Below are positions 8,489 through 63,716 of a stretch of DNA of 64,000 nucleotides, piece by piece; within the stretch, counting starts at the first letter, position 1; every line of letters starts with the position of its first letter. This DNA comes from a virus: the IMG/VR virus record IMGVR_UViG_3300045988_122191, positions 44,922-108,921 of that record, one strand, 5' to 3'. The notes below the pieces were generated by a model, which was given only the letters and a program-made list of their open reading frames with translations, ran no database searches and was not told where the DNA came from. A program made the position numbers and the translations under genes.

Positions 8489-9304
8489 ATGAGAGCAACA
8501 GATTTCATATATGATGGCGTGCAACTTAGTAGCCTCGGCTACATCGTATGCACGTTTGATAGCGGCGGCACCGACAGTAGTTCTGCTGGGTCTGAGATTA
8601 CTTTTAACTCTGTCAAGCAACACGGCGGAGTTTATTATGCTCAAACGGGAACGGAGTACGAGCAGTGTTTTTCCACCACATTTAGCATCTGCAAGAATAC
8701 CACAGATGGGCCTGGCCAGGAGATTTCCTTGGACGAGTACCGCAAGTTGATGCGTTGGTTAAACCGCAGACGGTTTTATGACTTTGCTTTGCTTGACCCA
8801 AAAGAAAACGGGTGGAAGGATATAACCTTCCAGGGAAGTTTCAACGTGGAAAAGATTGAGTTTGCCGGAAATATTATTGGGTTGAACCTTACCTTTAATA
8901 CTAACCGTCCGTTTGGCGTTGGTAAAGCTACTACTGTTGCGTTCTCTATAGAAGCCGCTAATGGCACTTATAATATAACAAACGACTCGGACGAGATTGG
9001 GGTACTTTATCCTGACCTCTTAGAAGTTACTTGTAAGCAGGCCGGGGATCTCTCTATTACTAATAATCTGGAAGGGCGGGTTACATTTATAACCGGCTGC
9101 ACTGCTGGAGAAAAGATAACAATGGACTGCGTAGACAAGATTGTCACATCTTCCCTAGCCTCCCACAAAAAGATTTATAACGATTTCAATTTCACATTCT
9201 TCCGGCTCTATAACTCTTATTCGGATCGCGTAAACACTATTACCTTCTCCATACCGTGTGACGTAAAAATTATTTACAGGCCGATACGGAAGGTGGTGTT
9301 CTAA
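8489..9304 (+). CDS. distal tail protein (Dit-like)
   Basis: RBS AGGAGG 8 nt upstream. 271-aa ORF immediately after the TMP and before Tal, the canonical siphovirus order. Size and position match the Dit family. Confidence 0.7.
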   Translation: MRATDFIYDGVQLSSLGYIVCTFDSGGTDSSSAGSEITFNSVKQHGGVYYAQTGTEYEQCFSTTFSICKNTTDGPGQEISLDEYRKLMRWLNRRRFYDFALLDPKENGWKDITFQGSFNVEKIEFAGNIIGLNLTFNTNRPFGVGKATTVAFSIEAANGTYNITNDSDEIGVLYPDLLEVTCKQAGDLSITNNLEGRVTFITGCTAGEKITMDCVDKIVTSSLASHKKIYNDFNFTFFRLYNSYSDRVNTITFSIPCDVKIIYRPIRKVVF

Positions 9305-15850: not shown

Positions 15851-17164
15851 ATGGCATTAAAGGGTATTGATGTGTCTGTACATCAGGGAGCAATCGACTG
15901 GAAAAAAGTTGCGAAGGATGGCGTAAAATTCGCCATCCTTCGCGCCGGTTACGGGCGAGAGATCTCTCAGAAGGATAAGTATTTTGAAGTAAATTATGCC
16001 GGGGCTAGAGCCGCCGGTATCAAGGTTGGGGCTTACTGGTATAGCTATGCTGATAGTGTGGCTCGCGGTGAACAGGAAGCCAAGACTTTCCTAAAAGCAA
16101 TCGAGGGAAAGAAGTTTGACCTTCCCCTCTTCTTCGACCAGGAATATGAAACGGCCATTTTGAAACTGTCCGACGCTACTAGAACAGACATTGTTCTAAG
16201 GTTCGTAAAGACGGTAAAGGCCGCAGGTTATGAGTGCGGATTGTATAGTTCGACCGATTTTCTGAAGAATAAGCTGGTCACCTCCAGAGTTGCTGGCCTA
16301 AAAATTTGGCTGGCTGAGTATGGCCCCAAACTCCATTACACCGGCAAGGTTTGGGCTTGGCAGTATAGTAGCAAGGGGCGTGTATCCGGTATCAAGGGTA
16401 ACGTCGATATGAACCACGGCTACTTTGAGATTGCCACACCCGTAAAGACTCAAACTAAGAACAGTGACACTTTGCTGATGAAGGATGATACCGGCGATAA
16501 GGTGAAACTGTTACAACATCGGCTGAATATTATGGGCAGCCAGCTCGCTGAGGACGGTATCTGGGGCATCAAGACCGATCAGGCCGTTCGTAATTTCCAA
16601 TACAATTATGGTTTGGTTGTGGATGGTATCGTTGGCCCGAAGACACAGGAGAAGCTTATTTCGGAAGCGGTCGTTGCGTCCGCGAAGACGATCAGCAACT
16701 ACATGCTGAAGAACAAGTGGCATTACAAGGGTGACGGCTATACGGCGAAGACTACATTTGCTGCTACTAAGAGGTTGTCTAAGCCTGGTTCAAGCTGTGC
16801 GCACTTTGTCTCTTGGGTACTGCAGGATGTTGGTATGCTGCAGGCTGGAAAGATCCTGAGTCACAGCAAGGCTGGCTATGGCGTCGGCGAAAAGTCTATT
16901 GTTAATGCGGACAAGCTGATCGACTGTAAGGTCGTGTACCCGAATAAAAGTATCGACTCTTATAAGAATGAGCTGAAGCCTGGTGACGTGGTTGTCCATG
17001 ACTCCAGTATTGCTATCTACCTGCTGAAAGACAAGAAACCTGCTGTACTGACGGGCCGAAACGGATCATGTATCAATAGCAAGGGTCAGTATGTAAAAAT
17101 GCTTGTTACGTCTGGATATGAGTGGCGGCATAATGTCCTAGCAGTTGTAAGAGCGAAGGTGTAA
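15851..17164 (+). CDS. endolysin: GH25 muramidase with peptidoglycan-binding repeats
   Basis: N-terminus GIDVSVHQG...DWKKV...FAILRAGYG matches the GH25 lysozyme family. Residues ~210-265 resemble PG_binding_1 (LLQHRLNIMG...GIWG..T..AV..FQ). Followed by a terminator. Confidence 0.85.
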   Translation: MALKGIDVSVHQGAIDWKKVAKDGVKFAILRAGYGREISQKDKYFEVNYAGARAAGIKVGAYWYSYADSVARGEQEAKTFLKAIEGKKFDLPLFFDQEYETAILKLSDATRTDIVLRFVKTVKAAGYECGLYSSTDFLKNKLVTSRVAGLKIWLAEYGPKLHYTGKVWAWQYSSKGRVSGIKGNVDMNHGYFEIATPVKTQTKNSDTLLMKDDTGDKVKLLQHRLNIMGSQLAEDGIWGIKTDQAVRNFQYNYGLVVDGIVGPKTQEKLISEAVVASAKTISNYMLKNKWHYKGDGYTAKTTFAATKRLSKPGSSCAHFVSWVLQDVGMLQAGKILSHSKAGYGVGEKSIVNADKLIDCKVVYPNKSIDSYKNELKPGDVVVHDSSIAIYLLKDKKPAVLTGRNGSCINSKGQYVKMLVTSGYEWRHNVLAVVRAKV

Positions 17165-17726: not shown

Positions 17727-18926
17727 TTACAGTAGGCTTCCAGCTTTAGCAACCTCACTATTTGTGTAGGAGTCTGTGATGTGCGTATAATGTAGAGTCG
17801 TAGAGTAACTCGAATGCCCCATCACCTGTTGAACAAATAGCGGTTCGAGACCCTTTTTGAAACAGAGTGTTGCGAATGTATGTCTACATACATGCGGATG
17901 AATGCTTTTGATCTCCCTTGGAACTCGCCCTTTTTTATTTGCATTGTAGTTCTCTTTGGCTTGCATATTTGCACACACCCTTTTAAGATCGTGTGCAATA
18001 GGATATCTTGTAGCCGGAGACCCCATCGTTGTTGTAAAGACTAGGTTGCCGTGGTCGGGGTTTGCTCTCCACCTATTGCCAAGCTCCTCTTTTAAGGTTT
18101 GTTGCTTCATCCTCCAGGCTAGTAAATATTTTTCCACATCTCCGAAGAACGGGATTCTTCTGTACGCATTTGATGTTTTTGGAGTACATAGCTCTTCTAC
18201 TTTCTTGCCCCCGTCATAGTATGTTCTCATTGATCTCTCAATCGTGATTACCTTGTTGCCAAAATCTATATCCTCCCAACGTAACCCGGAGAATTCTCCG
18301 ATTCGTACGCCGGTAAGGAGCAAGAACATATATGCCTCATAGTAATAGTTGTTTTCGATCTCCTCCAAGAACAACTTTAGTTCCCAGTCAGCAAGCGCCC
18401 GTTTTTCTTTCGCGGCAGTTACATTGGCGTTCAGGATATTTATTCCAACACATGGGTTAACTTTAATTACTTTGTTTACTACAGCGATGTCTAGGCACTC
18501 TTTTAGAGCACCAAGGGCTTCTTTAATTGATCTATATGAATACTCCTTTTCTACAAGTTCATTTGTCGCTGTTTGAATATTCATCTGGGATATGTCTTCA
18601 ACCTTTTTTGCACCGATAATGTTGATATATGTGTTATTGATTTTTCTGTAATAGACCTTTCTGGATACATCAGATTTCAGACTTGGCGCTTTGCAGCGCT
18701 CAAACCATTCTTCAAACCACTCAGTAAGTTTTATGCCGGGGCGCTCTCCATACTCGTCCCTATGGGCGAGTGCTTTTTTCTCTTCAAACTCTTTCTTCAG
18801 TTTTGAAAGATTAGAATTATATATGCAGATCTTGGTCGTACCAATTTTTGCGCGAGCGCAATATATCCCGTCTTTCCGTTGAGAAAACCCAACCCCAAGA
18901 TCTTTCCCTTTTAAATCTTTGCCCAA
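17727..18926 (-). CDS. int: tyrosine integrase
   Basis: 399 aa. C-terminal catalytic region has HVCRHTFAT...GHSSYSTTLHYTH (R...HxxR...Y). Adjacent to the excisionase-like gene and the att-like repeats. Confidence 0.9.
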   Translation of the reverse strand: MGKDLKGKDLGVGFSQRKDGIYCARAKIGTTKICIYNSNLSKLKKEFEEKKALAHRDEYGERPGIKLTEWFEEWFERCKAPSLKSDVSRKVYYRKINNTYINIIGAKKVEDISQMNIQTATNELVEKEYSYRSIKEALGALKECLDIAVVNKVIKVNPCVGINILNANVTAAKEKRALADWELKLFLEEIENNYYYEAYMFLLLTGVRIGEFSGLRWEDIDFGNKVITIERSMRTYYDGGKKVEELCTPKTSNAYRRIPFFGDVEKYLLAWRMKQQTLKEELGNRWRANPDHGNLVFTTTMGSPATRYPIAHDLKRVCANMQAKENYNANKKGRVPREIKSIHPHVCRHTFATLCFKKGLEPLFVQQVMGHSSYSTTLHYTHITDSYTNSEVAKAGSLL

Positions 18927-19977: not shown

Positions 19978-20880
19978 TCACTTATCCATTCCAATCATGA
20001 TGTTTCCGTCCTTCGATGTGACGACGCCAGGCATCTTGCCATCCCATTTTTCAATATACCGACTCTTAATAACGTTATCAGTCAAAGATTTTTCCAGCAT
20101 TTTGTTTGCCTTGGACTCAGCTTCGGCATTCTTAATCTTTACCTTCGCTTCCGCCTCTGCTTTAGCGATATTTTTCTTATTGAGGATCTCTTGCTCCTCT
20201 GCTTCAAGCTGTGCTTTCTGCTTTTTAGCAATGGCTCTGTTGTAACTATCCTCAAAATCAGCACCGTTGATAACAACTTTGTTAATCACAACAACGTTCT
20301 TATTATATTTTTCGTCCAACGCTTCTTGCAGGTGCTTCATAGCGAGTGGTTCAATCTTTGTTCTTGACGTCGCGTCGGTGTCTTGCAGCTCTTTGCTCGC
20401 AGATTTGACCGCAGAAGACACAATCCCAGTAGAAACTAGCGCATCTTTATAGTCTGAGACATTGGCGTAGATCCAAGAGGACTTGTCCGGGTTAATTTGA
20501 TAGGTCACAGTCACATTTTCGTAGTACACAGCAGTTCTATTTGCAGTCTCAGACCAAATCTTATCTTCAAAAGTGACGTCTTGTTGCTTGTTGTTTACCG
20601 CTTCGATTTTCTGAACGAACGGAACTTTCCAATTGAATCCGGTTTGGACAGTTTTCTCTGAAATCTGACCGAATGTGCTGCGCACGCCGGTATATCCGGT
20701 GGGAATAATAGTGAACGTCTGTAAACCCAACATAATAACAATTCCAGCTACAATAAAAATGTTGCAAGTCTTTGTAATTCTTGCTCCGGCCTCGTGCTTC
20801 ATGTCCCCGCATCGACAAACGATTGATACAACAATACCTGCCAGCACAAAGATGGCAGCAATAAAACGCAAAAACCCCAT
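19978..20880 (-). CDS. SPFH/band-7 (prohibitin/HflC-like) membrane protein
   Basis: N-terminal TM helices followed by an SPFH core (TGYTGVRSTFGQI...FNWKVPFVQKIE) and a C-terminal Ala/Glu/Lys coiled coil. Confidence 0.7.
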   Translation of the reverse strand: MGFLRFIAAIFVLAGIVVSIVCRCGDMKHEAGARITKTCNIFIVAGIVIMLGLQTFTIIPTGYTGVRSTFGQISEKTVQTGFNWKVPFVQKIEAVNNKQQDVTFEDKIWSETANRTAVYYENVTVTYQINPDKSSWIYANVSDYKDALVSTGIVSSAVKSASKELQDTDATSRTKIEPLAMKHLQEALDEKYNKNVVVINKVVINGADFEDSYNRAIAKKQKAQLEAEEQEILNKKNIAKAEAEAKVKIKNAEAESKANKMLEKSLTDNVIKSRYIEKWDGKMPGVVTSKDGNIMIGMDK

Positions 20881-22464: not shown

Positions 22465-23637
22465 TTATTTTTTATCTAGGCTACAGATAATCTCATCAAT
22501 CTTAATCGCACACCCCACAAAGTCCAGCGGGCCAAACCCTTTGGTCGTCATAGCTGCACAGCCGATTCTAATTCCACTAGTCTCTGTCGGAGATCTCTTA
22601 TCACCCGGCACACAGTTCTTATTTACTGCAATACCTTTCTCCTCCAAGGCGTCCTGGACCATTTTCCCAGTAACATTAGGATGGGTATTGGTCAGGTCAA
22701 TCATGAACAGATGATTGTCTGTTCCGCCGGATACAATCTCGTAGCCCATCTTTTTGAACTGCTCGCACATAGTGTATGTATTCAGAACCACCTTGGAGAT
22801 ATACTCCTTGTACTCTTCCGTGCAAGCCTCTTCTGCCGCCACTGCTTTGCCTGCAATAGCGTGCATTAGAGGGCCGCCCTGGTTTCTGGGGAACACCGCG
22901 CTATTGATTTTCTTTGCCAACTCTTCTGTACGAGAGAAGACCATGCCGCCCCTGGTAGAACGAAGGGTCTTATGCGTGGTGGTGGTGATTACATCTGCGA
23001 GGCCAAATGGAGATACGTGCTCGCCACCGACAATCAGCCCGGCGATATGTGCCATATCTACCATAAAGATAGGGTGGTAATCAGGATCAACAGACATTTC
23101 GATATCAATGATTTTTTTAATCAAGCCAAACTTAATTTCTCTTGAATAAGAACTCGCACCAGCTAAAATTAGCTTGGGTTTGTGAGTTCTTATTTTTTTA
23201 CTGAGATCGTAGTAATCAATAATCCCATCTTCATCTAAACCATAGAAAACCGGATTGTAAAGCTTACCAGAAATGCTGGCTGGCGAAAAGTGTGATAGGT
23301 GCCCACCACAGTCCAACGACATGCTCAAAACCGTATCACCTGGATTGAGCAGCGCGTAGTAAACCGCTTCGTTTGCCTGTGTGCCGGAGTGGGGTTGGAC
23401 ATTTACGAAGTAGTCTGTGTTGAAGGCTTCCTGCCATTTCTTTTGGCAGTAAAGCTCAAGCTCGTCTACCACTTCACAGCCGCCATAATACCGGTAACCA
23501 GGATACCCCTCGGCGTACTTGTTGGTAAGGCAAGAACCAACTGCTTTCATCACATCTTCTGAACAAAAGTTCTCTGACGCAATTAGATTGATCTGGCGTT
23601 CTTGTCTTTGCTGTTCTTCCGCAATAAAATCAAACAC
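22465..23637 (-). CDS. glyA: serine hydroxymethyltransferase
   Basis: SHMT motifs LIASENF, VQPHSG and TTTTHKTLRSTRGG (PLP lysine region) are present. 390 aa, slightly shorter than bacterial GlyA. Confidence 0.85.
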   Translation of the reverse strand: MFDFIAEEQQRQERQINLIASENFCSEDVMKAVGSCLTNKYAEGYPGYRYYGGCEVVDELELYCQKKWQEAFNTDYFVNVQPHSGTQANEAVYYALLNPGDTVLSMSLDCGGHLSHFSPASISGKLYNPVFYGLDEDGIIDYYDLSKKIRTHKPKLILAGASSYSREIKFGLIKKIIDIEMSVDPDYHPIFMVDMAHIAGLIVGGEHVSPFGLADVITTTTHKTLRSTRGGMVFSRTEELAKKINSAVFPRNQGGPLMHAIAGKAVAAEEACTEEYKEYISKVVLNTYTMCEQFKKMGYEIVSGGTDNHLFMIDLTNTHPNVTGKMVQDALEEKGIAVNKNCVPGDKRSPTETSGIRIGCAAMTTKGFGPLDFVGCAIKIDEIICSLDKK

Positions 23638-24713: not shown

Positions 24714-25052
24714 TCATTTATCTGTTTTGTCGTAAATCGTCTTTACGACAGTCCCAATGCGAACACTTTTAACGACCTTGTAAGGTTGTCCAGTCATTTG
24801 ATATCCAAGAAGATCCCACGTCCAAGGGATGCACCAAAGGTTATTACCAGCCTTAATGATGGTCTGCATCTCTTTAGCTGATCGGCCTTCTCCCCTTTCC
24901 ACCACATCAAATTCTTCGTACTTGCCAGGCTCTGTGTGACATCTATCATCATAACCAAGTGCTAGGTAGGAGAGTTCTTCTTCGTTAAGAGGAATGCCAT
25001 GCAGCATTTTCTCAATGATTGTCACTACCAAATCGCCTCCTCTCTTATTCAA
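24714..25052 (-). CDS. hypothetical protein (paralogue of 55850-56164)
   Basis: Shares ...G(N/D)(N/D)LW(C/A)IPW...QPY(K/R)VVK..R... with the ORF at 55850-56164. Confidence 0.45.
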   Translation of the reverse strand: MNKRGGDLVVTIIEKMLHGIPLNEEELSYLALGYDDRCHTEPGKYEEFDVVERGEGRSAKEMQTIIKAGNNLWCIPWTWDLLGYQMTGQPYKVVKSVRIGTVVKTIYDKTDK

Positions 25053-26007
25053 TCTTCACGCCGATCGACTCCAGGACTTCCTTCATCCCAAGTCCGCCTT
25101 CGTCCCAGGGCTTCATGCAATACTCCCACAGCTTCGGGTGAGTTTGCTTTAGCCGCTGGAACCGGTTCGGTTCTTTTTCCAGATGCGCCCCGAACGCGCA
25201 GAAGACGCAGCCCGTGCGAGCGCAACCAGTAGTATGTAACTTGCCCTTATCATCTTCCACAATCTCGCCATAGACCGAGGCGTAGGGGACGTTAAACCGC
25301 TTGAGATAAAGCAGCACGTCTTGCTCTGTCCAAAAGCTCATTGGTTGGGACTGTGGGTGTTTAACCTCAAAAGCGTTGCAGCCATTTACCAGCCAAGCCT
25401 GGCGACGCATAACACCTTCTTCCGCCATGGTGGCAATGATAGGGTGCTTCTTACTCGCCGTGTGGTATCGGTGTGCCGTGCTCTTCTTCATGACGTTGCA
25501 GCACTGCTTGCTCACTTTGATATGGTCGTTTTCGGGGTTGTTCACCCAGTCAACCCACCGGCGGGATAGGTTTAACCTAGCCCGCCGGTATAACGGGTGG
25601 CTCGAATCCATATAGCGTTGTGTGTAAGCGCAGCCCTTCCGGGAGTCTTCGATTAGCTGCGCGGTGTGCTTTGACCCCAACGGATACCCGTACTTCTCGA
25701 TCACCTGGCGGAAATTTATCTTCGGTTTCAGCCAAGTGACATTGTTAAACGTCTTGACAAACTCCCTAATCTCCGGGTACTCCAAGCCAGTGTCGATAAA
25801 CACTGCCTCGATGTCAGGGTAGATTCTACGGGCCATATCCAGCAGCACGGTAGAATCCTTGCCGCCAGAGAATGACACGTACACCTTGCCGTCATAGTGT
25901 TGATACCATTCGATGATGCGGGTCTGCGTGACCCGGATTTTGCGTTCTAACGGCCATGCCTGCATTTCCTTTAGGTCTTCTGGGGTGTATTTCTTTTCTT
26001 TTTCCAT
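25045..26007 (-). CDS. PAPS-reductase-like PP-loop ATP pyrophosphatase family protein (DndC-like)
   Basis: PP-loop motif VSFSGGKDSTVLL and a C-terminal Cys cluster (TTGCARTGCVFCAFG). 320 aa. Confidence 0.6.
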   Translation of the reverse strand: MEKEKKYTPEDLKEMQAWPLERKIRVTQTRIIEWYQHYDGKVYVSFSGGKDSTVLLDMARRIYPDIEAVFIDTGLEYPEIREFVKTFNNVTWLKPKINFRQVIEKYGYPLGSKHTAQLIEDSRKGCAYTQRYMDSSHPLYRRARLNLSRRWVDWVNNPENDHIKVSKQCCNVMKKSTAHRYHTASKKHPIIATMAEEGVMRRQAWLVNGCNAFEVKHPQSQPMSFWTEQDVLLYLKRFNVPYASVYGEIVEDDKGKLHTTGCARTGCVFCAFGAHLEKEPNRFQRLKQTHPKLWEYCMKPWDEGGLGMKEVLESIGVKIE

Positions 26008-40503: not shown

Positions 40504-41214
40504 TTATTCCTCCGTATGTAGTTTATTCAAATCTCTCAGCAGAGCAGTCGCTCTTGCCTTCTTTTTAATTTGTTTGTAGTCTCCAGTGGGAATCAGCTTC
40601 CCATTTTCGTCACGCTTATCTACGTGCTTTGTAACCAACTCTCTAATCTTTTCTCTCTTGCTAGGATCTTTTGCCGCGATGTCGTTAGCGATTGCGTCAA
40701 TTTCTTCAATGATAGACGCGAGTTCGTTCTTAGACTTCTCTTCTTTTTGCTTCGAGCGAATGAAGTCCGGATCGTCGGTAGTAGTAGCACACTGAAAGTA
40801 TTTCAGTAGGAAATATCTGTTACTGTAGGTAAGAGCCGAACCAAACGCCTGGCTGCTATCTGCTTGATTGCCAGTCATCGTCCAGGGGACAATGATCTTT
40901 TCTTCAGGATTGTCGTTGTTAACCCAGGTATAGACCATATCGGCAGAGACCAAGAATTCATTTACTGTTTCCGTCTTGCCGCCTTTCGTTTTCTCGTAGC
41001 TAAAAGGCCGCACGTCCGCCGTACCGTGGACAATCCCTGGAACCAGCGTCAGACCGTACTCCGCAACAGCACTGTTGATTTTAGGCAACAGCTCTACGTC
41101 AGAAGTGTAGCTATACCCATACCCCTTCTTATCTTTCTTGACAACATCTACGGCTTTCTGTACTGCCGCAAGCTTCTGATAGATGTTCAATGTTGCGTGA
41201 TTTTCTTTTTCCAT
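40504..41214 (-). CDS. erf: ERF-family single-strand annealing protein
   Basis: N-terminus NIYQKLAAVQKAV...KDKKGYGYSYTSDVELL resembles Erf. Sits with ssb and the exonuclease as a recombination module. Confidence 0.55.
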   Translation of the reverse strand: MEKENHATLNIYQKLAAVQKAVDVVKKDKKGYGYSYTSDVELLPKINSAVAEYGLTLVPGIVHGTADVRPFSYEKTKGGKTETVNEFLVSADMVYTWVNNDNPEEKIIVPWTMTGNQADSSQAFGSALTYSNRYFLLKYFQCATTTDDPDFIRSKQKEEKSKNELASIIEEIDAIANDIAAKDPSKREKIRELVTKHVDKRDENGKLIPTGDYKQIKKKARATALLRDLNKLHTEE

Positions 41215-41284
41215 ATTTCACCTCGTCTCATTTTTTGCGCTGGCCGCGTTGCAAAATAACCTTATATTTTTTAACCGCTCAGCG

Positions 41285-41313
41285 TGATTATATTATATAA
41301 CTTTATTTTTCAA
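41285..41313 (-). promoter_or_regulatory. candidate sigma-A-type promoter upstream of the erf-ssb-exo operon
   Basis: On the - strand, TTGAAA then 15 nt then TATAAT, ~70 nt upstream of the erf start. Adjacent hairpin at 41329-41355. Confidence 0.3.
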
Positions 41314-41374
41314 ATGTCTACCCCTTTTCGCGAAACTCGTCTGACGAGTTTCGCGACGGAGCAGCCACTTAAAA

Positions 41375-41788
41375 TCACAGTCCTTGAATCCTCTTTGACT
41401 CCTTCCATACGTCCAGGAGTTCCTCCTCTGAAAGAAGGGCGATGGCCGAGGAGGATAGGATGTTTCCAATAGCTATGCTCTTAATATCCTCCTCTTCTAG
41501 AGCACCTAGATATTTCAGCAATCTTGACTTTGACATCCTCTGCGGATTCTCACATAGGACAAGGCTATCCGCCAGCAGGTTGTATTTCTCCGCTGGCAGA
41601 AGCACATGTGTGGGTTGAGCTAGATTCTTAATTCTGGTCGTGAGCGGCAGCGCTATGACGTTCGGGCTTCTGTCATTTCCAATATCGTTTTGGAAAATGA
41701 TTCCCGGCCTGACGCCTTTCTGTTCACTGCCAACCCCACTGAAACTCATTAGATATATATCGCCTAGTCGCGGCTTATCGTATTCCAT
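41375..41788 (-). CDS. mazF: MazF/PemK/EndoA-family endoribonuclease toxin
   Basis: Near-collinear match to B. subtilis EndoA: RLGDIYLMSFSGVGSEQKGVRPGIIFQNDIGNDRSPNVIALPLTT...PTHVLL. RBS GAAGGAG. Confidence 0.8.
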   Translation of the reverse strand: MEYDKPRLGDIYLMSFSGVGSEQKGVRPGIIFQNDIGNDRSPNVIALPLTTRIKNLAQPTHVLLPAEKYNLLADSLVLCENPQRMSKSRLLKYLGALEEEDIKSIAIGNILSSSAIALLSEEELLDVWKESKRIQGL

Positions 41789-41799
41789 AAAATCTCCTT

Positions 41800-41834
41800 C
41801 TACCCGATGTTAGGTTCCGCTAACACACGGGTAG
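41800..41834 (-). promoter_or_regulatory. 13-bp interrupted stem-loop immediately upstream of the mazF RBS
   Basis: ctacccg a tgttag gttccg ctaaca ca cgggtag. Confidence 0.3.
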
Positions 41835-41842
41835 AAGAGAGC

Positions 41843-42013
41843 ACTTAATCGTTACTTTTCTTCCGTGTCTTTGCGTAAAGTATCGGGCTTTTCCTTAAAT
41901 CTATCTGTTACCTGTCGCCATGTGCAGGCGACCCATGCTTGCCAGTCAGGACACTGGCGAGTACACTTCCAGTCCCTATCACACAATCTACAAGGACTAG
42001 TATCCAAAATATT
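41843..42013 (-). CDS. small Cys-rich ORF (56 aa) in the antitoxin position upstream of mazF
   Basis: ATG after GGAGGCGGTGG; MPENILDTSPCRLCDRDWKCTRQCPDWQAWVAC.... Below the ORF-track size cutoff. Confidence 0.25.
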
Positions 42014-42021
42014 CTCCGGCA

Positions 42022-42309
42022 TTATTCCACCGCCTCCAACCTTTTTAATCCAAGAGTTTTAATAACAACGTATACTGCGGACGGCGTCACCTTGATCTTT
42101 CTTGCGATATCACTGGCGCTCATCCCGTCTAGATACAAAGACGCCACTTCGTCAATATCAATCTTAATACGGCCATCTCTCACTTTGCTCTTTCGCTTTC
42201 TATGTACCTGCTCATTCGGGCGATTCTGCGCTACCCACTGACCATAACTCAAACCAGCTTCCTTAGCCGCAGCCGCCACTTCATCAATTGTCATTGGATT
42301 GCAGCTCAT
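42022..42309 (-). CDS. HTH DNA-binding protein
   Basis: Start chosen at MSCNPMTIDEV after GAAGGAGAGGA. HTH-like MSASDIARKIKVTPSAVYVVIK. Confidence 0.4.
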   Translation of the reverse strand: MSCNPMTIDEVAAAAKEAGLSYGQWVAQNRPNEQVHRKRKSKVRDGRIKIDIDEVASLYLDGMSASDIARKIKVTPSAVYVVIKTLGLKRLEAVE

Positions 42310-43843
42310 AATACTTATCCTCTCCTTCGGTATCTTCATCGTTATTGTCCTTCTGGCTACCAGCGGCGACCTTCCCGCCAATCAGCCCGGAAATCAACGC
42401 GTTAATGTCAAGACCAGTCGAACTCTTAACACCCTCAGTTACCTGAGTCATCGTATTCATGATGTTGTTTGCAAGCTGGCCTGAGGCGTCACCAAACATC
42501 TTAATTTCCCCGACGTTGGCATAGCCATCACCAATTGCCGCAGCGATCTTAGGTAACTGCTCGAAATATACTTTCAGTGTGTCGAGTTCCATCTGCTGCT
42601 TTGCCGCATCGCCATACTCCTTCATTGCTTCTGCCTTCTTCAGAATACCAGCAGCCTCTGCTTCTGCCTTCGCCTTGATCGCCTCAGCTTCTGCAACACC
42701 CTTAGCGGAAATTGCATCAGCCTCCGCAATACCAGCAGCTCTTACAGCCTCTGCTTCCTGTTCCTTTGCAAATCTCTCTGCTTCTGCGCGAGCTTTCTGA
42801 GCTTCCGCCTCCTTCTGGGTCTCAAAGAGTTCTGCCTCTGCCTGCTTCTGTCGTTCGTACTGGTCTGCGTCCGCCTTCTGCTGGGCTGCATACTTCTCTG
42901 CTTCAGCCTGCTTCTTAACAGTAGCCTCCAGCACTTTCTCCTTAATCGCAACCTCTCGTTCCTTTAGCTCAATCTCTTTCTCCTGTCGAGCCAGGTTTGC
43001 GTTAGCGGTTGCAATCTCTACGGTACGGCGCTGCTCTTCCTTCTGAATGTCGTAAGCTGCTTCCGCCTCTGCTCTCTTGGAGTCGGCCTGCTTCAGCAGC
43101 TCGGACTTCTTAATAGCAAGTTCGTTCTGCCGCTCTGCAATTTCCGTGTCGCTCTTAACACGAGCATCATTCGCTTCACGCTCTGCCACCGCGTTTGCAA
43201 TAGCGACTTCCTTATCTGCGTTCGCCTTTGCAATAGCTGCATCCTTTTTAATCTGAGAGATGTTGTCAATGCCAAGATCTTCAATGACATGGTTTGCGTC
43301 AGAGAACCGCTGCACGTTAAATGAAACCAGTTCAAGACCCATCTTTTGCAGGTCGGGGATTACGTTTTCAGAAACTTTCTCGACGAAAGTTTTACGATCT
43401 CCAATCAGTTCCCGCAGCTTCATTGTGCAGATAATCTCTCTGATATTACCTTCAAGAACTTCAGCGACAATCGCCCCGACCTCTTCGCTGGTCTTATTCA
43501 GGAAATTCTTTGCCGCGACCTCGACCATCTCCGGTGTAGAACCAATCTTCACGTTAACAGCAGAATCAACGTAGATATTGATACAGTCTGCTGTCGGCAC
43601 TGCATCCCCAGTTCTAATGTCCAGAGGGATCAGCTTGAGAGAAAGCTCGTCCACCCGTTCAAAGAAAGGAATCTTCACGCCAGCTTTACCAATAAGAACC
43701 TTCGGCTTCTTTCTTACGCCGGAGATAATCAGCGCTTTGTCGGGCGGAGCCTTCACATATCCTCTAGCAAGAACACCGGCGACACCAACTGCCGCTACAA
43801 CAGGCACCGCAACTGTGAGACCACTCATAAGTTCAGTAATCAT
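42284..43843 (-). CDS. SPFH/flotillin-like protein (YqiK/FloT family)
   Basis: N-terminal hydrophobic segment, SPFH core, then a long Ala/Glu/Lys-rich coiled coil and C-terminal region. 519 aa. Confidence 0.75.
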   Translation of the reverse strand: MITELMSGLTVAVPVVAAVGVAGVLARGYVKAPPDKALIISGVRKKPKVLIGKAGVKIPFFERVDELSLKLIPLDIRTGDAVPTADCINIYVDSAVNVKIGSTPEMVEVAAKNFLNKTSEEVGAIVAEVLEGNIREIICTMKLRELIGDRKTFVEKVSENVIPDLQKMGLELVSFNVQRFSDANHVIEDLGIDNISQIKKDAAIAKANADKEVAIANAVAEREANDARVKSDTEIAERQNELAIKKSELLKQADSKRAEAEAAYDIQKEEQRRTVEIATANANLARQEKEIELKEREVAIKEKVLEATVKKQAEAEKYAAQQKADADQYERQKQAEAELFETQKEAEAQKARAEAERFAKEQEAEAVRAAGIAEADAISAKGVAEAEAIKAKAEAEAAGILKKAEAMKEYGDAAKQQMELDTLKVYFEQLPKIAAAIGDGYANVGEIKMFGDASGQLANNIMNTMTQVTEGVKSSTGLDINALISGLIGGKVAAGSQKDNNDEDTEGEDKYYELQSNDN

Positions 43844-43846
43844 TAT

Positions 43847-45880
43847 TCATTCCTCCACTATGTAATTATTTAAAAATCCTTCTTCTGAAAGAATCGGGAT
43901 TCCCATGCTAACAGCTTTCTTGAGTTTCGAGCTTCCGCCCTGCGGATCATTGCAAACCAGACAAGTCGTGTCTTTTGTCACACTTAACGACACGCTCCAG
44001 CCCGCACCTTTTGCAACCTCCTCGAACTCTTTTCTTGACTTAAACGTCTTCAGTTTGCCAGTCACGCAAACCGTCATTCCTGCGTTCTTCTTGTTTTCCC
44101 TAACAGTAATAGCTAAATAGCAACTCAACGACGTAATCTCCTCAGAATGTCTTTTGACATAGTCGTTAATCCCATCACTGGTTTTTGCGCCAACCCCATT
44201 GAGATTGCTCCAATCCGCATCAGTATTTGCCATATCGCACAACGTCTCAGCAAACGAGCACTCGCCCATTACTTCAAAGATTGCCTCAGCTATAACCGGT
44301 GCAGAGGATTTCCCTACGCCAGGAATTCCTATTGCAACAATAAAGTTTTCTGCCGCACAAGTCTTGCTTTTCTCTATCGCGGCCAGCAGCTTGTCCACGC
44401 TGGCGTCACCAAACCCGTCGAGCTGCTTCATATCATCACAATATCTGTCGAGCTGGTAAACATCAGCAAGATTCTTCAACCATCCGTTGTTGACGAAAAG
44501 CTTGATGCGCTCCGTAGACAGGCCATCAATATTCATCCCTTGCCTAGACACGAAGTTTGAAATCCTGTCTACCAAAACCGCAGGACAATTATCGTTACTA
44601 CACTCAAGACGCTGAGCTTCGTTACTTGATACAACTCTAGCGGCTTCCCCGCAGACCGGACAGTGTTCCGGAATTGAATACGTGTCACTCTGAGTAAGGT
44701 TACGAACAACCATCGGGATGATTTGATTAGCCTTGATGACTTCAATTTCGTCGCCAATCCCAAGCTTTAGCTTTTTAATCTGGCTTACATTAGAAAGGCT
44801 CGCCCTGCTTACAGTCGTGCCATCAATTTCTACAGGGTCGAACACAGCGACTGGGTTGATCGTGCCGGTCCTCGTAGTATTCCACTCAATGCTTCTAAGC
44901 GTTGTCAGATTTCTCTCCTGATAGAACTTAAAGGCGAAGCTATGATTTGGGTGGTGAGAAGTCTCGCCTAGCGACCGCCCATATTTCTGATCGCAGAATG
45001 TTCCGACCACTCCGTCGATTGGGTATGGCGTACGCTTCATTGTCTCCATGGTACGGCTCACAAATTCCTTGACGTTAGCACCGCCCTTACCGGAAGAAGG
45101 GACAGGCACAATCCGAGCGGTCGTAAACCCTAGGTCGCTCAGCACCTGCATGGCGTCTCGAAAATCTTTATCTTGAAATCCAGGTGTAGAATTTCGCCAC
45201 GCTATGAAACTGACATTTCGTCTACACAAAACAGCACTGTCTAGCTGTCTGACAGTTCCACTCACAAGGTTGCGGGGGTTCTTATAGCAGGTGTTTTCGG
45301 CATTTTTGATTTTTTCAAAATCTTCATAGCTGATCACTGCTTCCCCATCTACATACAGCTTGCCTTGATATGGAATGGTTAACGGGATATTAGTGAACTC
45401 TTTTGCGTTATGAGTGATATCCTCGCCGACAGTACCATCTCCTCGTGTCTCGGCGCGTTTAAGGACGCCATGTTCGTATGTAAGAGCGCAAGTAATACCA
45501 TCTAGTTTCGGCATCAATACGAACTCATGCTGATTAAAATACGCAACAAACTCATCTAGCCCGGTCGTCTTAGCGAGGGACAGTAACTTGTGTGTATGCG
45601 TTACCTTTCTCAGATCACTAACCACTTTGCTACCAACAGTTCTTGTCGGAGAGCTTGAGTATGTAATACCTGTTTCTTTTTCAAGCCACGCTAACGCATC
45701 TACAAACTTGTCAAACTCCCTGTCGCTTACTACATTTTCGCCACCATTAAAATAGCTATCGTTGAGACAATTTATAAAATATATTAGCTCTTGCATGAGT
45801 TCGATGTCGTTAAGACGCTGCTGCTCTTTATCAAGTAATATCGGCTTATACATTGACATAAGCACAAACCCCAATTGCAA
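43847..45880 (-). CDS. ligA: NAD-dependent DNA ligase
   Basis: Adenylation motif PKLDGI, OB domain, zinc finger CPVCG...CSNDNCP, HhH region and C-terminal BRCT. 677 aa. Confidence 0.9.
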   Translation of the reverse strand: MQLGFVLMSMYKPILLDKEQQRLNDIELMQELIYFINCLNDSYFNGGENVVSDREFDKFVDALAWLEKETGITYSSSPTRTVGSKVVSDLRKVTHTHKLLSLAKTTGLDEFVAYFNQHEFVLMPKLDGITCALTYEHGVLKRAETRGDGTVGEDITHNAKEFTNIPLTIPYQGKLYVDGEAVISYEDFEKIKNAENTCYKNPRNLVSGTVRQLDSAVLCRRNVSFIAWRNSTPGFQDKDFRDAMQVLSDLGFTTARIVPVPSSGKGGANVKEFVSRTMETMKRTPYPIDGVVGTFCDQKYGRSLGETSHHPNHSFAFKFYQERNLTTLRSIEWNTTRTGTINPVAVFDPVEIDGTTVSRASLSNVSQIKKLKLGIGDEIEVIKANQIIPMVVRNLTQSDTYSIPEHCPVCGEAARVVSSNEAQRLECSNDNCPAVLVDRISNFVSRQGMNIDGLSTERIKLFVNNGWLKNLADVYQLDRYCDDMKQLDGFGDASVDKLLAAIEKSKTCAAENFIVAIGIPGVGKSSAPVIAEAIFEVMGECSFAETLCDMANTDADWSNLNGVGAKTSDGINDYVKRHSEEITSLSCYLAITVRENKKNAGMTVCVTGKLKTFKSRKEFEEVAKGAGWSVSLSVTKDTTCLVCNDPQGGSSKLKKAVSMGIPILSEEGFLNNYIVEE

Positions 45881-57394: not shown

Positions 57395-58363
57395 TCACAC
57401 CTCCGTAGCACCAGCAGAAATCAGAGCATTCCCGCAAGTAATTCTATCGCTGTCCTCTTCCTTGCTCGGGACAAACACGATGACATCCCAACCGGCGTCA
57501 ACCAGTGGCTGTTCAAATTTCCGGTAAACATCGTAATTCGTGTAGGTAGTAGACACGTCGAATCCATTCTGAACCGCAGAGTTTGTCTCGTGAATAGGCG
57601 TAATCTTAACGATGAACTTATCCTTGCTAAATAGCTCCCCCAGTCTAACAGGATCAATAATTGTATCGGCAGTCACTGCAAAATTCAGAGTGTACTTTCT
57701 CCCTACCGGATCAGGAAGCCCCCTTGCAATCTTAGAAATCTCATCCAGGCTGAGGCTCATGCCGCTGAACTGCTCCTCTCGTTGCTTATCGTCCGTACTG
57801 TTGATACTAAACTGCAGTCCTGCTTCGCCACCGTACCAACGATTCTTAACTCTACACCACACCATAAGGAACAACTTTAGGTGCGGATTATTCTTCGGTA
57901 ACATCGTAGAAACAACCGGGTGAATTGTTTTAGCGGTGATATACTTTCCTACCAGAGGTTTAAGCTCATCACGCGCAAAGAAAATAACGTCAGAATTAAA
58001 TGTTGGCTCGCCCATTCTTGCAAAATGCACGTTAAACCTATCCGTGTATTTAGTAGACTCGCCTTTTAGGATCGTTTCAATCTCATACTTGAGATCTTCG
58101 AGAGAAGCATTACCGTGAAATCCGTACTTTGGACAATCACAAAACTTGCATTTCATTGGGCACCCTTTCTGGGTGCTGATTGTTGCGACCCATTTCTTAC
58201 TGAGGTCAACCGGCTTGTTCTCTACGCCATTGATTTCCTTATGCAACCCAAGGAAATCTGCCTTAATATTATTCTCTTTACCGTAGTCTCCGACGGTCAG
58301 AAACTCCAGCTGTCTTTCTTCATCAACGTAAATCTTACCGGTGTGGGTGTTAACAATTCTCAT
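57395..58363 (-). CDS. radical SAM protein
   Basis: CX3CX2C as CPMKCKFC near residue 68. 322 aa. Confidence 0.55.
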   Translation of the reverse strand: MRIVNTHTGKIYVDEERQLEFLTVGDYGKENNIKADFLGLHKEINGVENKPVDLSKKWVATISTQKGCPMKCKFCDCPKYGFHGNASLEDLKYEIETILKGESTKYTDRFNVHFARMGEPTFNSDVIFFARDELKPLVGKYITAKTIHPVVSTMLPKNNPHLKLFLMVWCRVKNRWYGGEAGLQFSINSTDDKQREEQFSGMSLSLDEISKIARGLPDPVGRKYTLNFAVTADTIIDPVRLGELFSKDKFIVKITPIHETNSAVQNGFDVSTTYTNYDVYRKFEQPLVDAGWDVIVFVPSKEEDSDRITCGNALISAGATEV

Positions 58364-62543: not shown

Positions 62544-63716
62544 TTAGTTTTTGAGATCCTTCTTCATCGTGGCTTCAATATCAAAGCCAAACTTCTGACT
62601 ATAGCGAGTGATAACTCCATCAATACTTCCTCTGTTAACCATTCGATAGTAGCTCATAAGACCGAGCACATATTGCAGTTGCTCAAGAGGCCAATAAGTT
62701 CCGCTCTTTCTGTCCTTCGCGTAATTGAAAAGCATCGCCTCGAAGTTGCGCTTCTTCTTATACCCAATCGTGATCTGGTTGTCCTTGTTGATCATCACAC
62801 CGAGTACCCAATTCTTATGATACGAGGGGCCGTAATGAGTTTTCTCATCTTTGATGAGATAACTGGCCCCGAAAAGTCTAAACAGATTTTCAATCTTTCT
62901 GATAATGAAGCTCTTATCAAACTCAATACCACAGCTGATGTTCATATCATCAGCATATCTGGTATACGCGAACCTTCTACCCTTTTCATCAGGGTTGTTT
63001 TCCGGGTTCTGCAGGCTACGCAGAAACTTACTGAACTCAAAATCAAACGGAATCATAATCAGATTGGTCAGCATCGGGCTGATCGGCGTTCCCATAGGTA
63101 GACCTCCATCCAGGAAGCAAAGCGACAGAGCTTTTCTAAGCTCTTCTCTCCCGCTTTTGCACTCCATAATGAGACAGAACGGGTAAATCATAGACAGCGC
63201 GTTCCATACAAACTCCGGAGTGGTATTAGGAAAGAAACCGCTGATGTCAGTCTTTAAATACCACTTGCTCTTATTCCACTGATGGACTTTTGCGGCGTCT
63301 ACACTACTTCTGTTTTTGACATAAGCGTATGCAGCGGCATGGCTGCTCGCATAAAACTCAGATTCTAACAGCAGTTTTAGCTCTCGCAGACAATTCATCA
63401 GCTCGTCGTCCGGCGCGTTAATCTCTCTCATGCCGCCGCTCTTTTTCGGGATAAAAAACTTGTGGTAATGCTCACGAATATCACTCTCCATCAGGCCATG
63501 GTGTTTCTTGTTGAATGTTCTTAACAAACCAATCTTTTTCTCAACATCAAACCCCGCTAAAATTCTTTCAGGAAGTCGCTCATATGTAAATGTTCTAGTA
63601 TACGGAGATCTTGGTGTTCGCTCCCGCACATTCTCACCTTGGAATAATGCGAGCATAATATCTTCTAAAGCAATTTGCTTGTACGGCTCTGTAATTCTAA
63701 CTGTTACATAAATCAT
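62544..63716 (-). CDS. reverse transcriptase, retron-type (or retron-like Abi/DRT)
   Basis: RT motifs 1/2 KKSGGMREINAP and motif 3 WYLKTDISGFFPNT. Pre-motif YAYVKNRSSVDAAKVH (cf. retron ...RSI.TNA..H). Motif 4 GLPMGTPISPMLTNL. Motif 5 YTRYADDMNIS. Thumb region VLGVMINKDNQITIGYKKKRNFEA (cf. the retron VTG...KR pattern). RBS AAGGAGA. Confidence 0.75.
   Translation of the reverse strand: MIYVTVRITEPYKQIALEDIMLALFQGENVRERTPRSPYTRTFTYERLPERILAGFDVEKKIGLLRTFNKKHHGLMESDIREHYHKFFIPKKSGGMREINAPDDELMNCLRELKLLLESEFYASSHAAAYAYVKNRSSVDAAKVHQWNKSKWYLKTDISGFFPNTTPEFVWNALSMIYPFCLIMECKSGREELRKALSLCFLDGGLPMGTPISPMLTNLIMIPFDFEFSKFLRSLQNPENNPDEKGRRFAYTRYADDMNISCGIEFDKSFIIRKIENLFRLFGASYLIKDEKTHYGPSYHKNWVLGVMINKDNQITIGYKKKRNFEAMLFNYAKDRKSGTYWPLEQLQYVLGLMSYYRMVNRGSIDGVITRYSQKFGFDIEATMKKDLKN

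What the first reader, a model, noticed from the sequence alone, without database searches (positions are those of the whole stretch)
41375..42021. MazF/EndoA-family toxin without a recognisable RHH/AbrB antitoxin; Cys-rich micro-ORF and hairpin in the antitoxin position
The 137-aa protein aligns almost residue-for-residue with B. subtilis EndoA over GDIY..SF.GSEQ.GVRPGII.QNDIGN..SP..IA.P.T. No MazE, PemI or EndoAI-like gene precedes it. Instead there is a 233-nt spacer holding a 13-bp interrupted stem-loop abutting the mazF RBS. The spacer also holds a 56-aa ORF with C-x2-C...C-x3-C spacing (MPENILDTSPCRLCDRDWKCTRQCPDW...) and a good RBS. A lytic-cycle MazF could shut down host translation or destroy competitor or defence transcripts. 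The Cys-rich peptide may be a novel antitoxin or regulator.
Basis: partly seen in the sequence, partly recalled or inferred. Interest (0 to 1): 0.6.

Follow-up and report, generated by a model that had tools for sequence, protein, structure and literature searches.

The report
Phage MazF toxin lacking a canonical antitoxin
A temperate gut phage carries an intact MazF RNA-cutting toxin with an extra tail helix and no normal antidote gene; the tiny cysteine-rich gene in front of it is real, but its relatives elsewhere do not sit next to a MazF, so it is at best an unproven antidote.

Summary
Window 41375-41788 (-) encodes an intact MazF/PemK endoribonuclease: Pfam E=7e-23, AF2 pLDDT 91, closest solved folds S. 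aureus and B. subtilis MazF, catalytic Arg27/Thr50 invariant. No MazE, PemI or AbrB/RHH-type gene precedes it.

The 56-aa Cys ORF (41852-42022) is a real gene: 12 synonymous and 0 non-synonymous changes in its core against a relative. It stays next to this MazF down to 70% MazF identity. The hairpin is stronger than described (-31 kcal/mol, z=-5.2) and buries the mazF Shine-Dalgarno sequence.

The antitoxin reading is only weakly supported.
- The Cys4 protein belongs to a wider, unannotated family of small phage proteins. All 5 distant members checked have no MazF neighbour.
- The MazF belongs to a long-form phage subfamily with a conserved extra C-terminal helix. About 107 of 128 relatives lie between a different ~105-aa gene and an MrpR/SroF-like repressor, and many have their own strong promoter.
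- About 10% of relatives have neither upstream gene.
- The phage carries an integrase, so "lytic-cycle MazF" is doubtful.

Best reading: an orphan-type phage MazF whose translation is gated in cis and which is linked to lysogeny. The Cys4 protein is a candidate neutraliser, not a shown one.

The parts
41375..41788 (-). Long-form MazF/PemK endoribonuclease gene (137 aa). Catalytic Arg27 and Thr50 correspond to BsMazF Arg25 and Thr48.
   Evidence: Pfam PF02452 E=6.7e-23. AF2 pLDDT 91.4. Foldseek hits to SaMazF and BsMazF. R27 is invariant and T50 at least 90% conserved in 58 homologues. dN/dS is 0.04-0.10 against close relatives.
41378..41449 (-). C-terminal extension of MazF (residues 114-137, SAIALLSEEELLDVWKESKRIQGL), absent from solved MazF structures. 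Predicted helix 121-136 with near-invariant L124 and W128.
   Evidence: Alignment with BsMazF ends at about residue 116. L124 and W128 are at least 90% conserved. The helix is confidently modelled, with block pLDDT of 97 and 83. PDB matches cover only about 112 columns. tblastn hits to cultured-phage MazF genes stop at residue ~103.
41794..41839 (-). Stem-loop in the 63-nt gap between the Cys ORF and mazF. Its 3' arm contains the mazF Shine-Dalgarno sequence GAAGGAG (41794-41800), 5 nt before the ATG at 41788.
   Evidence: dG -31.2 kcal/mol, z=-5.16. An equivalent SD-occluding fold occurs in L021, L022, L023, L016, L149 and L151, at -20 to -31 kcal/mol. There are only one-sided or wobble changes and no double compensatory pair.
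41852..42022 (-). 56-aa Cys4 mini-protein gene (P-C-x2-C-x5-C-x3-C followed by a Trp-rich helix). It belongs to an unannotated family of small phage proteins.
   Evidence: 12 synonymous and 0 non-synonymous changes in the core against L023. Orthologues in L016 and L017 have invariant C11, C14, C20, C24, W30 and W35. There are 17 further hits at E<=1e-3 (16 credible). No Pfam, PHROG, PADLOC, NCBIfam or PDB hit. The AF2 model is low-confidence (pLDDT 51) with helix 26-43.
42022..42309 (-). 95-aa helix-turn-helix protein gene. Its stop overlaps the Cys ORF start (TAATG). It is conserved with the Cys-MazF pair in the close clade but absent in L017.
   Evidence: HTH_7 E=6e-6 and HTH_28 E=2.6e-5. 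The trio HTH-Cys-MazF is present in 10 of 10 places. L017 has Cys-MazF without it. No homologue in cultured phages.
41328..41356 (-). Perfect 13-bp hairpin 19 nt after the mazF stop, without a U-tract. It marks the 3' end of the mazF unit.
   Evidence: dG -31 kcal/mol, z=-5.35. Sequence read.
41292..41320 (-). Promoter-like site (TAGACA-17-TATAAT, 11 of 12 matches) heading the downstream Erf/SSB/exonuclease operon. This would make mazF the last gene of its transcription unit.
   Evidence: Downstream genes identified as Erf and PDDEXK nuclease.

Best explanation
The locus encodes an active, orphan-type, long-form MazF endoribonuclease carried by a temperate ~105-kb phage of gut Clostridia.

Shown:
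- It has the MazF fold, with the catalytic Arg/Thr pair and the RNA-binding motifs intact and under purifying selection.
- It has a conserved extra C-terminal helix.
- It has no MazE-type partner.
- Its ribosome-binding site is buried in a -31 kcal/mol hairpin.

Inferred:
- MazF output in this phage is set mainly in cis. The gene is the last cistron of an early operon (ligase, variable gene, HTH, Cys4, mazF). It lacks the dedicated strong promoter that most relatives have, and it is translated only when the SD-occluding hairpin is opened. Toxin levels should therefore be low or conditional.
- By analogy with its subfamily, the RNase acts in the lysis/lysogeny or prophage-immunity programme by cleaving phage and/or host transcripts, rather than as a plasmid-style addiction module. 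In about 107 of 128 relatives the gene lies 19 nt (median) upstream of an MrpR/SroF-like repressor gene, and most distinct upstream regions carry a TTGACA-N14-TGnTATACT promoter. SPbeta/phi3T phages are reported to use the host MazF to favour lysogeny.
- The upstream Cys4 mini-protein is a real protein of a wider phage family that is not specific to MazF. It may modulate or neutralise this MazF, but nothing found here requires that.
For: - MazF identity and integrity.
- No canonical antitoxin.
- SD-occluding hairpin, kept in relatives of 78-99% MazF identity.
- Operon position and boundary.
- Temperate lifestyle (integrase).
- Subfamily context over 128 loci: 107 have UP105 upstream and an MrpR-like gene downstream, 6 have Cys4 upstream, 14 have neither (2 of them distant non-family MazFs). 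MrpR_N_CB E=1e-13, above the Pfam cutoff.
- Spacing: mazF to MrpR-like gap has a median of 19 nt; UP105 to mazF gap is about 110 nt.
- A near-consensus extended -10 promoter lies in 74 of 100 distinct upstream regions.
- The -10 region is predicted to pair with the SD region in 55% of these, against 19% in controls.
- Cys4 family members without a MazF neighbour: 5 of 5. The family is mostly basic, unlike acidic antitoxins.
- Cultured phages also carry solitary MazF genes.
- Literature: host MazF degrades phi3T mRNAs except the sroF operon and promotes lysogeny. YopM, encoded in the mrpR operon, binds MazE (bioRxiv 10.1101/2025.11.27.690993; PMC10769878; PMC10516654).
Against: - Nothing here measures RNase activity, toxicity or expression.
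- The hairpin shows no double-sided compensatory changes, so its conservation could partly reflect low divergence plus the constrained SD.
- The window phage lacks the MrpR-like gene and the proximal promoter, so transferring the lysogeny role from relatives is indirect.
- Cys4 and mazF stay adjacent through two rearrangements: with or without HTH, and with or without the MrpR-like gene. The position upstream of mazF is occupied by one of two unrelated small genes in about 90% of loci. Both facts fit a neutraliser encoded there.
- An unneutralised active MazF would be expected to harm the lysogen.
Confidence: 0.45

Rival explanations
1. This is a non-canonical two- or three-component toxin-antitoxin module. 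The Cys4 mini-protein, a zinc-knuckle-like motif plus an aromatic amphipathic helix, binds and neutralises MazF-long. The upstream HTH protein supplies the DNA-binding and autoregulatory function, as in omega-epsilon-zeta or PaaR-PaaA-ParE. The hairpin ties mazF translation to that of the Cys4 gene.
For: - Cys4 is a real gene with selective constraint similar to that of mazF.
- It is always directly upstream of mazF in this clade: 10 of 10 places, and in L016 and L017 at 78% and 70% MazF identity. L017 lacks HTH and has gained an MrpR-like gene.
- HTH and Cys4 overlap by TAATG.
- The Cys4 stop lies 12 nt before the core stem of the SD-occluding hairpin.
- It occupies the slot held by another small gene (UP105) in most relatives.
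- Precedent: the small phage proteins AimX and YosL bind MazF through a single helix (PMC10769878).
Against: - Five of 5 distant Cys4-family members have no MazF nearby and share no neighbour.
- The family is mostly basic.
- In L017 a promoter-like site lies between Cys4 and mazF, and the SD there is not occluded.
- A ribosome terminating at the Cys4 stop would reach only the weak outer pairs, not the core stem (inference from coordinates).
- About 10% of MazF-long loci have neither Cys4 nor UP105.
- There is no structural or binding evidence.
Confidence: 0.25
2. This is a self-neutralised, fused toxin-antitoxin-like MazF. The conserved extra C-terminal helix (residues 121-136, L124/W128) folds back onto the MazF body or dimer groove and keeps the RNase inactive until a trigger displaces it. 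This would be analogous to CapRel-type fused TA defence proteins. It would explain why no adjacent antitoxin is universal.
For: - The extension is conserved across the whole subfamily at 46-100% identity, with near-invariant L124 and W128.
- It is modelled as a helix packed on the domain with high confidence.
- It is absent from all solved MazF structures.
- The tail is acidic (pI 4.6).
- A hydrophobic-x3-aromatic pattern recalls the M-x3-Y motif of the MazE/AimX helix (comparison by eye with PMC10769878; a lead only).
- About 10% of loci lack both upstream genes, and 5 loci also lack the MrpR-like gene.
Against: - It may simply extend the C-terminal helix bundle or the dimer interface.
- Many phage PemK-like proteins carry assorted extensions.
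- The motif resemblance is generic for amphipathic helices.
Confidence: 0.15
3. The HTH protein (42022-42309) is itself the antitoxin, an Xre/HTH-type antitoxin as in HigA- or MqsA-like systems, and Cys4 is a bystander.
For: It is a conserved HTH gene in the same operon in the close clade and is translationally linked to the downstream genes.
Against: It is absent upstream of Cys4-mazF in L017. It is not adjacent to mazF. It is basic (pI 9.4). Its HTH hits are weak and generic, and it has no TA or defence family hit.
Confidence: 0.08

Closest known systems
B. subtilis EndoA/MazF (YdcE) with MazE (YdcD), and S. aureus MazEF
   Same: Same fold and motifs. 36% identity to BsMazF in the protein alignment and 37-42% to BsMazF/SaMazF in the structural matches, TM about 0.9 on the target. 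The Arg25/Thr48 equivalents are conserved (role of these residues from my knowledge of Simanshu et al. 2013).
   Different: There is no upstream RHH-type MazE. There are about 24 extra C-terminal residues forming a conserved helix. The SD is buried in a hairpin. The gene is phage-borne and lies in an early operon.
Solitary phage 'MazF-like growth inhibitor' genes (phrog_1936), e.g. Enterocloster phage PMBT24 and Psychrobacillus phage Perkons
   Same: These are phage-encoded PemK/MazF genes with no annotated antitoxin next to them.
   Different: They are about 118-120 aa. tblastn matches stop at residue ~103, so the C-terminal helix is not matched. They sit in other genome contexts (a tail/lysis region in PMBT24) and are at most 48% identical.
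SPbeta/phi3T lysogeny circuit: host MazEF, YopM (phi3T_93), AimX/YosL and the integrase-fold repressor MrpR/SroF
   Same: In about 107 of 128 relatives MazF-long is encoded immediately upstream of an MrpR_N_CB-type repressor-like gene. In Bacillus phages MazF activity favours lysogeny, and small phage proteins bind MazF.
   Different: There the MazF is the host's. Here it is phage-encoded. The window phage itself lacks the MrpR-like gene. No arbitrium genes were looked for. The functional link is inference only.
Three-component TA systems (omega-epsilon-zeta; PaaR2-PaaA2-ParE2)
   Same: The gene order is regulator (HTH), small protein without a recognisable DNA-binding domain, then toxin, with overlapping regulator and small-protein genes. 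The comparison rests on my knowledge of those systems.
   Different: The toxin family differs. The small protein's relatives occur without any toxin. A 63-nt structured gap precedes the toxin. No functional data exist.
Fused toxin-antitoxin defence proteins such as CapRelSJ46
   Same: It is prophage-borne, with a toxin domain followed by a conserved C-terminal add-on and no universal separate antitoxin. The comparison rests on my knowledge.
   Different: The add-on here is a single ~16-residue helix, not a domain. Autoinhibition is untested.

Membership tests
MazF/PemK (CcdB/MazF-fold) endoribonuclease toxins | Sequence membership in PF02452 above the curated threshold | tested here: met
   81.4 bits against a cutoff of 23.1, E=6.7e-23.
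MazF/PemK (CcdB/MazF-fold) endoribonuclease toxins | MazF three-dimensional fold | tested here: met
   AF2 pLDDT 91.4. Foldseek to SaMazF and BsMazF gives E~1e-13, TM on target 0.88-0.90, rmsd 1.8 A.
MazF/PemK (CcdB/MazF-fold) endoribonuclease toxins | Catalytic Arg and Thr (BsMazF R25/T48) and the SEQ.G.RP loop retained | tested here: met
   R27 is invariant and T50 at least 90% conserved. S21 is at least 90% conserved, and E22, Q23, G25 and P28 are invariant in 58 homologues.
MazF/PemK (CcdB/MazF-fold) endoribonuclease toxins | Sequence-specific RNA cleavage and growth inhibition | not testable with these tools
   Needs an in vitro cleavage assay or an expression assay.
Canonical type II mazEF/pemIK operon | Upstream adjacent antitoxin with an AbrB/RHH/MazE-type DNA-binding domain | tested here: not met
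   The two upstream ORFs have no such hit in Pfam, PHROGs, PADLOC or NCBIfam.
Canonical type II mazEF/pemIK operon | Antitoxin and toxin genes overlapping or nearly abutting, in one autoregulated operon | tested here: inconclusive
   There is a 63-nt structured gap between Cys4 and mazF. No promoter-like site was found in the gap between Cys4 and mazF; one weak 9-of-12 site sits at the HTH/Cys4 junction. Relatives carry a promoter directly upstream of mazF.
Canonical type II mazEF/pemIK operon | Direct toxin-antitoxin binding and neutralisation | not testable with these tools
Three-component TA (regulator + antitoxin + toxin) | Gene order of a separate DNA-binding regulator, a small antitoxin, then the toxin, co-conserved | tested here: inconclusive
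   The order is present in 10 of 10 close relatives and in L016. L017 lacks the HTH, and Cys4 relatives occur without any toxin.
Fused (single-chain) toxin-antitoxin | A conserved extra segment on the toxin that occludes its active site in cis | tested here: inconclusive
   The extra helix 121-136 is conserved and confidently modelled. Its packing site could not be read because no coordinates were available.
SD-sequestering translational control hairpin | A stable structure, beyond chance, that pairs the Shine-Dalgarno sequence | tested here: met
   dG -31.2 kcal/mol, z=-5.16, with SD GAAGGAG inside the 3' arm. The same topology occurs in six relatives.
SD-sequestering translational control hairpin | Covariation supporting the pairing | tested here: not met
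   0 of 18 pairs have double-sided compensatory changes. Only one-sided or wobble changes are seen.
Cys4-Trp small phage protein family (unnamed; alignment A8) | Motif P-C-x2-C-x5-C-x3-8-C-x2-[WYF]-x2-W-[FVL]-x3-W in a 44-110-aa protein | tested here: met
   P10, C11, C14, C24, W30 and W35 are invariant and C20 at least 90% conserved across 18 sequences. The hits have E=6e-6 to 1e-3 in an exhaustive search.

The most novel reading that the evidence does not exclude
MazF-long may be a phage-internalised version of the host MazF that SPbeta-like phages exploit: a self-contained lysogeny or immunity RNase. Its activity would be held in check without a MazE, by one of two routes. Either its own conserved C-terminal helix acts as a cis antitoxin (a single-chain MazF TA), or members of the new Cys4-Trp mini-protein family are phage anti-MazF proteins. 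The second route would also explain why distant members occur without a neighbouring MazF, since they would target host MazF.
Probability: 0.15. Interest if true: 0.75.

Novelty: new variant of a known kind. Interest (0 to 1): 0.5.

Why it matters
MazF toxins are normally understood as one half of a MazE-MazF pair. Here a distinct long-form subfamily is found in more than 100 large gut-Clostridia phage and prophage loci.

- It lacks MazE.
- It carries a conserved extra helix.
- In most members it lies 19 nt (median) upstream of an MrpR/SroF-like prophage repressor gene, and most distinct upstream regions carry a strong promoter just upstream of mazF.
- In this window it sits behind an SD-burying hairpin next to an uncharacterised Cys4 mini-protein.

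If the RNase is active, these phages would encode for themselves the activity that Bacillus SPbeta-like phages borrow from the host to steer lysis versus lysogeny. That would give a second, independent system in which to test that idea. It would also show how an active MazF can be tolerated without a canonical antitoxin. If instead MazF-long is simply a tightly repressed moron, the finding is a routine phage accessory gene.

Tried and rejected
- Complex prediction of Cys4 with MazF. The in-frame window reference was rejected because of 2 stop codons.
- Cys4 alone in AF2 gave pLDDT 51, which is not interpretable beyond a helix at residues 26-43.
- The afdb50 fold library was unavailable.
- Homology between Cys4 and the ~105-aa upstream protein of relatives: hhalign probability 0.2%, so they are unrelated.
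- PDB sequence-profile searches for both small proteins gave nothing meaningful.
- Pfam, PHROG, PADLOC and NCBIfam gave nothing for Cys4 or UP105.
- Rfam over 41100-42500 gave nothing above noise.
- Depletion of UACAU, the Bs/Sa MazF site, in the operon: counts are too small to mean anything.
- A search for UP105 or MrpR-like homologues elsewhere in the window found none.
- tblastn of HTH and Cys4 against cultured phages gave no real match.
- Word-indexed homologue searches for Cys4 found only 3 clusters. Only the exhaustive HMM search revealed the wider family.
- Isoelectric points did not discriminate an antitoxin.
- Locus L148 is a chimeric contig containing adaptor-derived sequence. Only its intergenic variant was used.
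Full report
**What is at the locus.** On the minus strand the window reads: NAD-dependent DNA ligase (43847-45880), an SPFH/flotillin gene (42284-43843), a 95-aa HTH gene (42022-42309), a 56-aa Cys-rich ORF (41852-42022), a 63-nt gap, a 137-aa ORF (41375-41788), a 13-bp hairpin, a promoter-like site, then Erf, an SSB-like gene and a PD-(D/E)XK exonuclease. The window also holds a GH25 endolysin and a tyrosine integrase (17727-18926, Phage_integrase E=3e-24). Near-identical sequences sit on 96-109-kb viral contigs. This is therefore a large, probably temperate phage. Hosts of the wider MazF subfamily, by MAG labels, are gut Clostridia (Oscillospiraceae, Ruminococcus and others).

**The MazF.** The 137-aa protein is an unambiguous MazF/PemK member.
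- Pfam E=6.7e-23 and phrog_1936 'MazF-like growth inhibitor'.
- AF2 pLDDT 91.4.
- Best solved matches are S. aureus and B. subtilis MazF at TM about 0.9.
- The equivalents of BsMazF Arg25 and Thr48 (R27, T50) and the SEQ.G.RP loop are invariant or nearly so in 58 homologues.
- dN/dS against close relatives is 0.04-0.10.

There is no sign of inactivation. The protein is about 24 residues longer than solved MazFs. The extension (SAIALLSEEELLDVWKESKRIQGL) is conserved across the subfamily, with near-invariant L124 and W128. It is modelled as a confident helix at residues 121-136. No PDB match covers it, and matches to cultured-phage MazFs stop near residue 103.

**The 'antitoxin position'.** The 56-aa ORF is a real gene.
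- Its start overlaps the HTH stop (TAATG).
- Its core accumulates only synonymous changes against relatives (12 synonymous/0 non-synonymous, 9/0 and 8/0).
- Orthologues at 48-51% identity in L016 and L017 keep C11, C14, C20, C24, A29, W30, W35, T39, F42 and K43.
- In 10 of 10 sampled contigs the order HTH-Cys4-MazF-Erf is constant, while the gene between the ligase and HTH varies: flotillin, 260 aa, 249 aa, 128+121 aa, or none.
- In L017 (MazF 70% identical) Cys4 precedes mazF without the HTH, and an MrpR-like gene follows mazF.

The Cys4-mazF adjacency therefore survives two rearrangements.

**The hairpin.** The gap folds into a two-tier stem-loop with dG -31.2 kcal/mol and z=-5.16. Its 3' arm contains the mazF SD (GAAGGAG, 41794-41800). 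Relatives with different gap sequences (L021/22, L023, L016, L149, L151) fold the same way, at -20 to -31 kcal/mol. The alignment shows only one-sided or wobble substitutions and no double compensatory pairs. The structure is thus supported by thermodynamics and by recurrence, not by covariation. The Cys4 stop lies 12 nt before the core stem. By my reading of ribosome footprints, a terminating ribosome would open only the weak outer pairs, so strict translational coupling is possible but not demonstrated.

**What the relatives show.** I collected 128 loci encoding this long-form MazF from viral contigs and species-representative genomes.
- 107 have an unannotated ~100-120-aa protein ('UP105') directly upstream and a 304-359-aa protein directly downstream.
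- The downstream protein hits Pfam MrpR_N_CB above threshold (E~1e-13) and phrog_5830, with no Phage_integrase hit. It resembles the integrase-fold master repressor MrpR/SroF of SPbeta.
- The mazF to MrpR-like gap has a median of 19 nt. The UP105 to mazF gap is about 110 nt.
- In 74 of 100 distinct upstream sequences that gap holds a near-consensus extended -10 promoter, TTGACA-N14-TGnTATA(C/A)T, about 39 nt before the start codon.
- In 55% of these the -10 region is predicted to pair with the SD region, against 19% when the 5' arm is shuffled. The leader architecture echoes the window's hairpin.
- UP105 and Cys4 are unrelated (hhalign probability 0.2%).
- Fourteen loci have neither upstream gene; two of these are distant non-family MazFs (31-34% identity). 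Seven of the 14 keep the MrpR-like gene and five have none of the three.
- The window has no UP105 or MrpR-like homologue and no proximal promoter.

**The wider Cys4 family.** Word-indexed searches found only the close clade. An exhaustive profile search of 1.84 billion representatives found 17 further hits at E<=1e-3, of which one (P0126) is a repeat-protein false positive; the other 16 are 44-110 aa. They share P-C-x2-C-x5-C-x3-8-C-x2-[WYF]-x2-W-[FVL]-x3-W (alignment A8). None has a Pfam or PHROG assignment. I looked up five of them. All lie among small phage genes, two just upstream of terminase genes. None has a PemK/MazF neighbour, and nothing but the Cys4 gene is shared between the neighbourhoods. 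Most members are basic. This is the main evidence against a dedicated antitoxin family. It does not exclude that this clade recruited the protein as a neutraliser.

**Interpretation.** The best-supported reading is an intact, orphan-type, long-form phage MazF.
- Its production in this phage is restrained in cis. It is the last cistron, it has no promoter of its own, and its SD is buried.
- Its biological role is tied to the temperate lifestyle rather than to plasmid-style addiction or a purely lytic host shut-off.
- The link to lysogeny is inferred from the subfamily's dominant context (promoter, mazF-long, MrpR-like repressor) and from the literature.
[quoted passage not shown] YopM, encoded in the mrpR operon, binds MazE. 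The small proteins AimX and YosL bind MazF through one helix.

I put about 0.45 on this composite. The rivals are Cys4 (with or without HTH) as a non-canonical antitoxin (0.25), cis-inhibition by the C-terminal helix (0.15, and not exclusive of the best reading), and the HTH protein as antitoxin (0.08).

**Comparison with known systems and novelty.** Membership in the MazF toxin family is met on sequence, fold and catalytic residues. Membership in a canonical mazEF operon fails on the defining antitoxin feature. Solitary MazF genes are already annotated in cultured phages such as PMBT24 and Perkons, so 'phage MazF without antitoxin' is not new in itself. Several things appear undescribed in the libraries and papers I could search: the long-form subfamily with its conserved tail helix, its systematic pairing with an MrpR-like repressor and a leader that pairs with the SD, and the Cys4-Trp mini-protein family. 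I rate it a new variant of a known kind, with interest 0.5.

Noticed in passing
window 17727-18926 (-) and 15851-17164 (+): A tyrosine integrase (Phage_integrase E=3e-24, with SAM-like N-terminal domain) lies next to a GH25 endolysin with a PG_binding_1 domain. The phage is probably temperate.
   Followed up: partly
window 62544-63716 (-): A 390-aa ORF has a reverse-transcriptase domain (RVT_1 E=2.9e-13). It could belong to a diversity-generating retroelement or a retron-like element. No template or variable repeats were sought.
   Followed up: no
window 22465-23637 (-), 25045-26007 (-), 57395-58363 (-): Three auxiliary metabolic or modification genes: serine hydroxymethyltransferase (E=4e-140), a PAPS-reductase-domain protein and a weak radical-SAM protein. 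Together they suggest nucleotide or DNA-modification functions.
   Followed up: no
window 42284-43843 (-) and 19978-20880 (-): There are two SPFH/Band-7 (flotillin-like) genes in one phage. The 519-aa copy occupies a variable slot between the ligase and the HTH gene. In relatives that slot holds unrelated genes or nothing.
   Followed up: partly
window 41328-41356 (-) and 41292-41320 (-): A perfect 13-bp hairpin (-31 kcal/mol, z=-5.35) lies right after mazF. It has no U-tract on the gene strand; an A-run follows it. Next comes an 11-of-12 promoter match heading the Erf operon. mazF is thus bracketed by two very stable hairpins.
   Followed up: partly
loci L024-L145 (e.g. L098:2552-2875, L098:2926-3408, L098:3435-4385): A conserved cassette occurs in more than 100 large gut phages and prophages: an unannotated ~105-aa protein (UP105; near-invariant N28, Q29, P53, V70, G83, C90, Y102), then a promoter TTGACA-N14-TGnTATACT, then long-form MazF, then an MrpR/SroF-like integrase-fold protein. 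The -10 box region is often complementary to the mazF SD region.
   Followed up: partly
loci L163:1483-1665, L165:2665-2901, L167:2655-2900: In distant phages the gene immediately downstream of the Cys4-Trp mini-protein is itself a small multi-Cys protein. These downstream proteins show no detectable similarity to each other.
   Followed up: no
window 692-8119 (+) and 9304-13104 (+): There are two very large ORFs (2475 aa and 1266 aa) in the plus-strand structural block. They were not analysed.
   Followed up: no
locus L148 (ENA scaffold, 1923 bp): The contig carrying MazF homologue P0063 is chimeric. The reading frames contain stretches typical of sequencing-adaptor read-through, so its 175-aa 'MazF' is an artefact.
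   Followed up: yes
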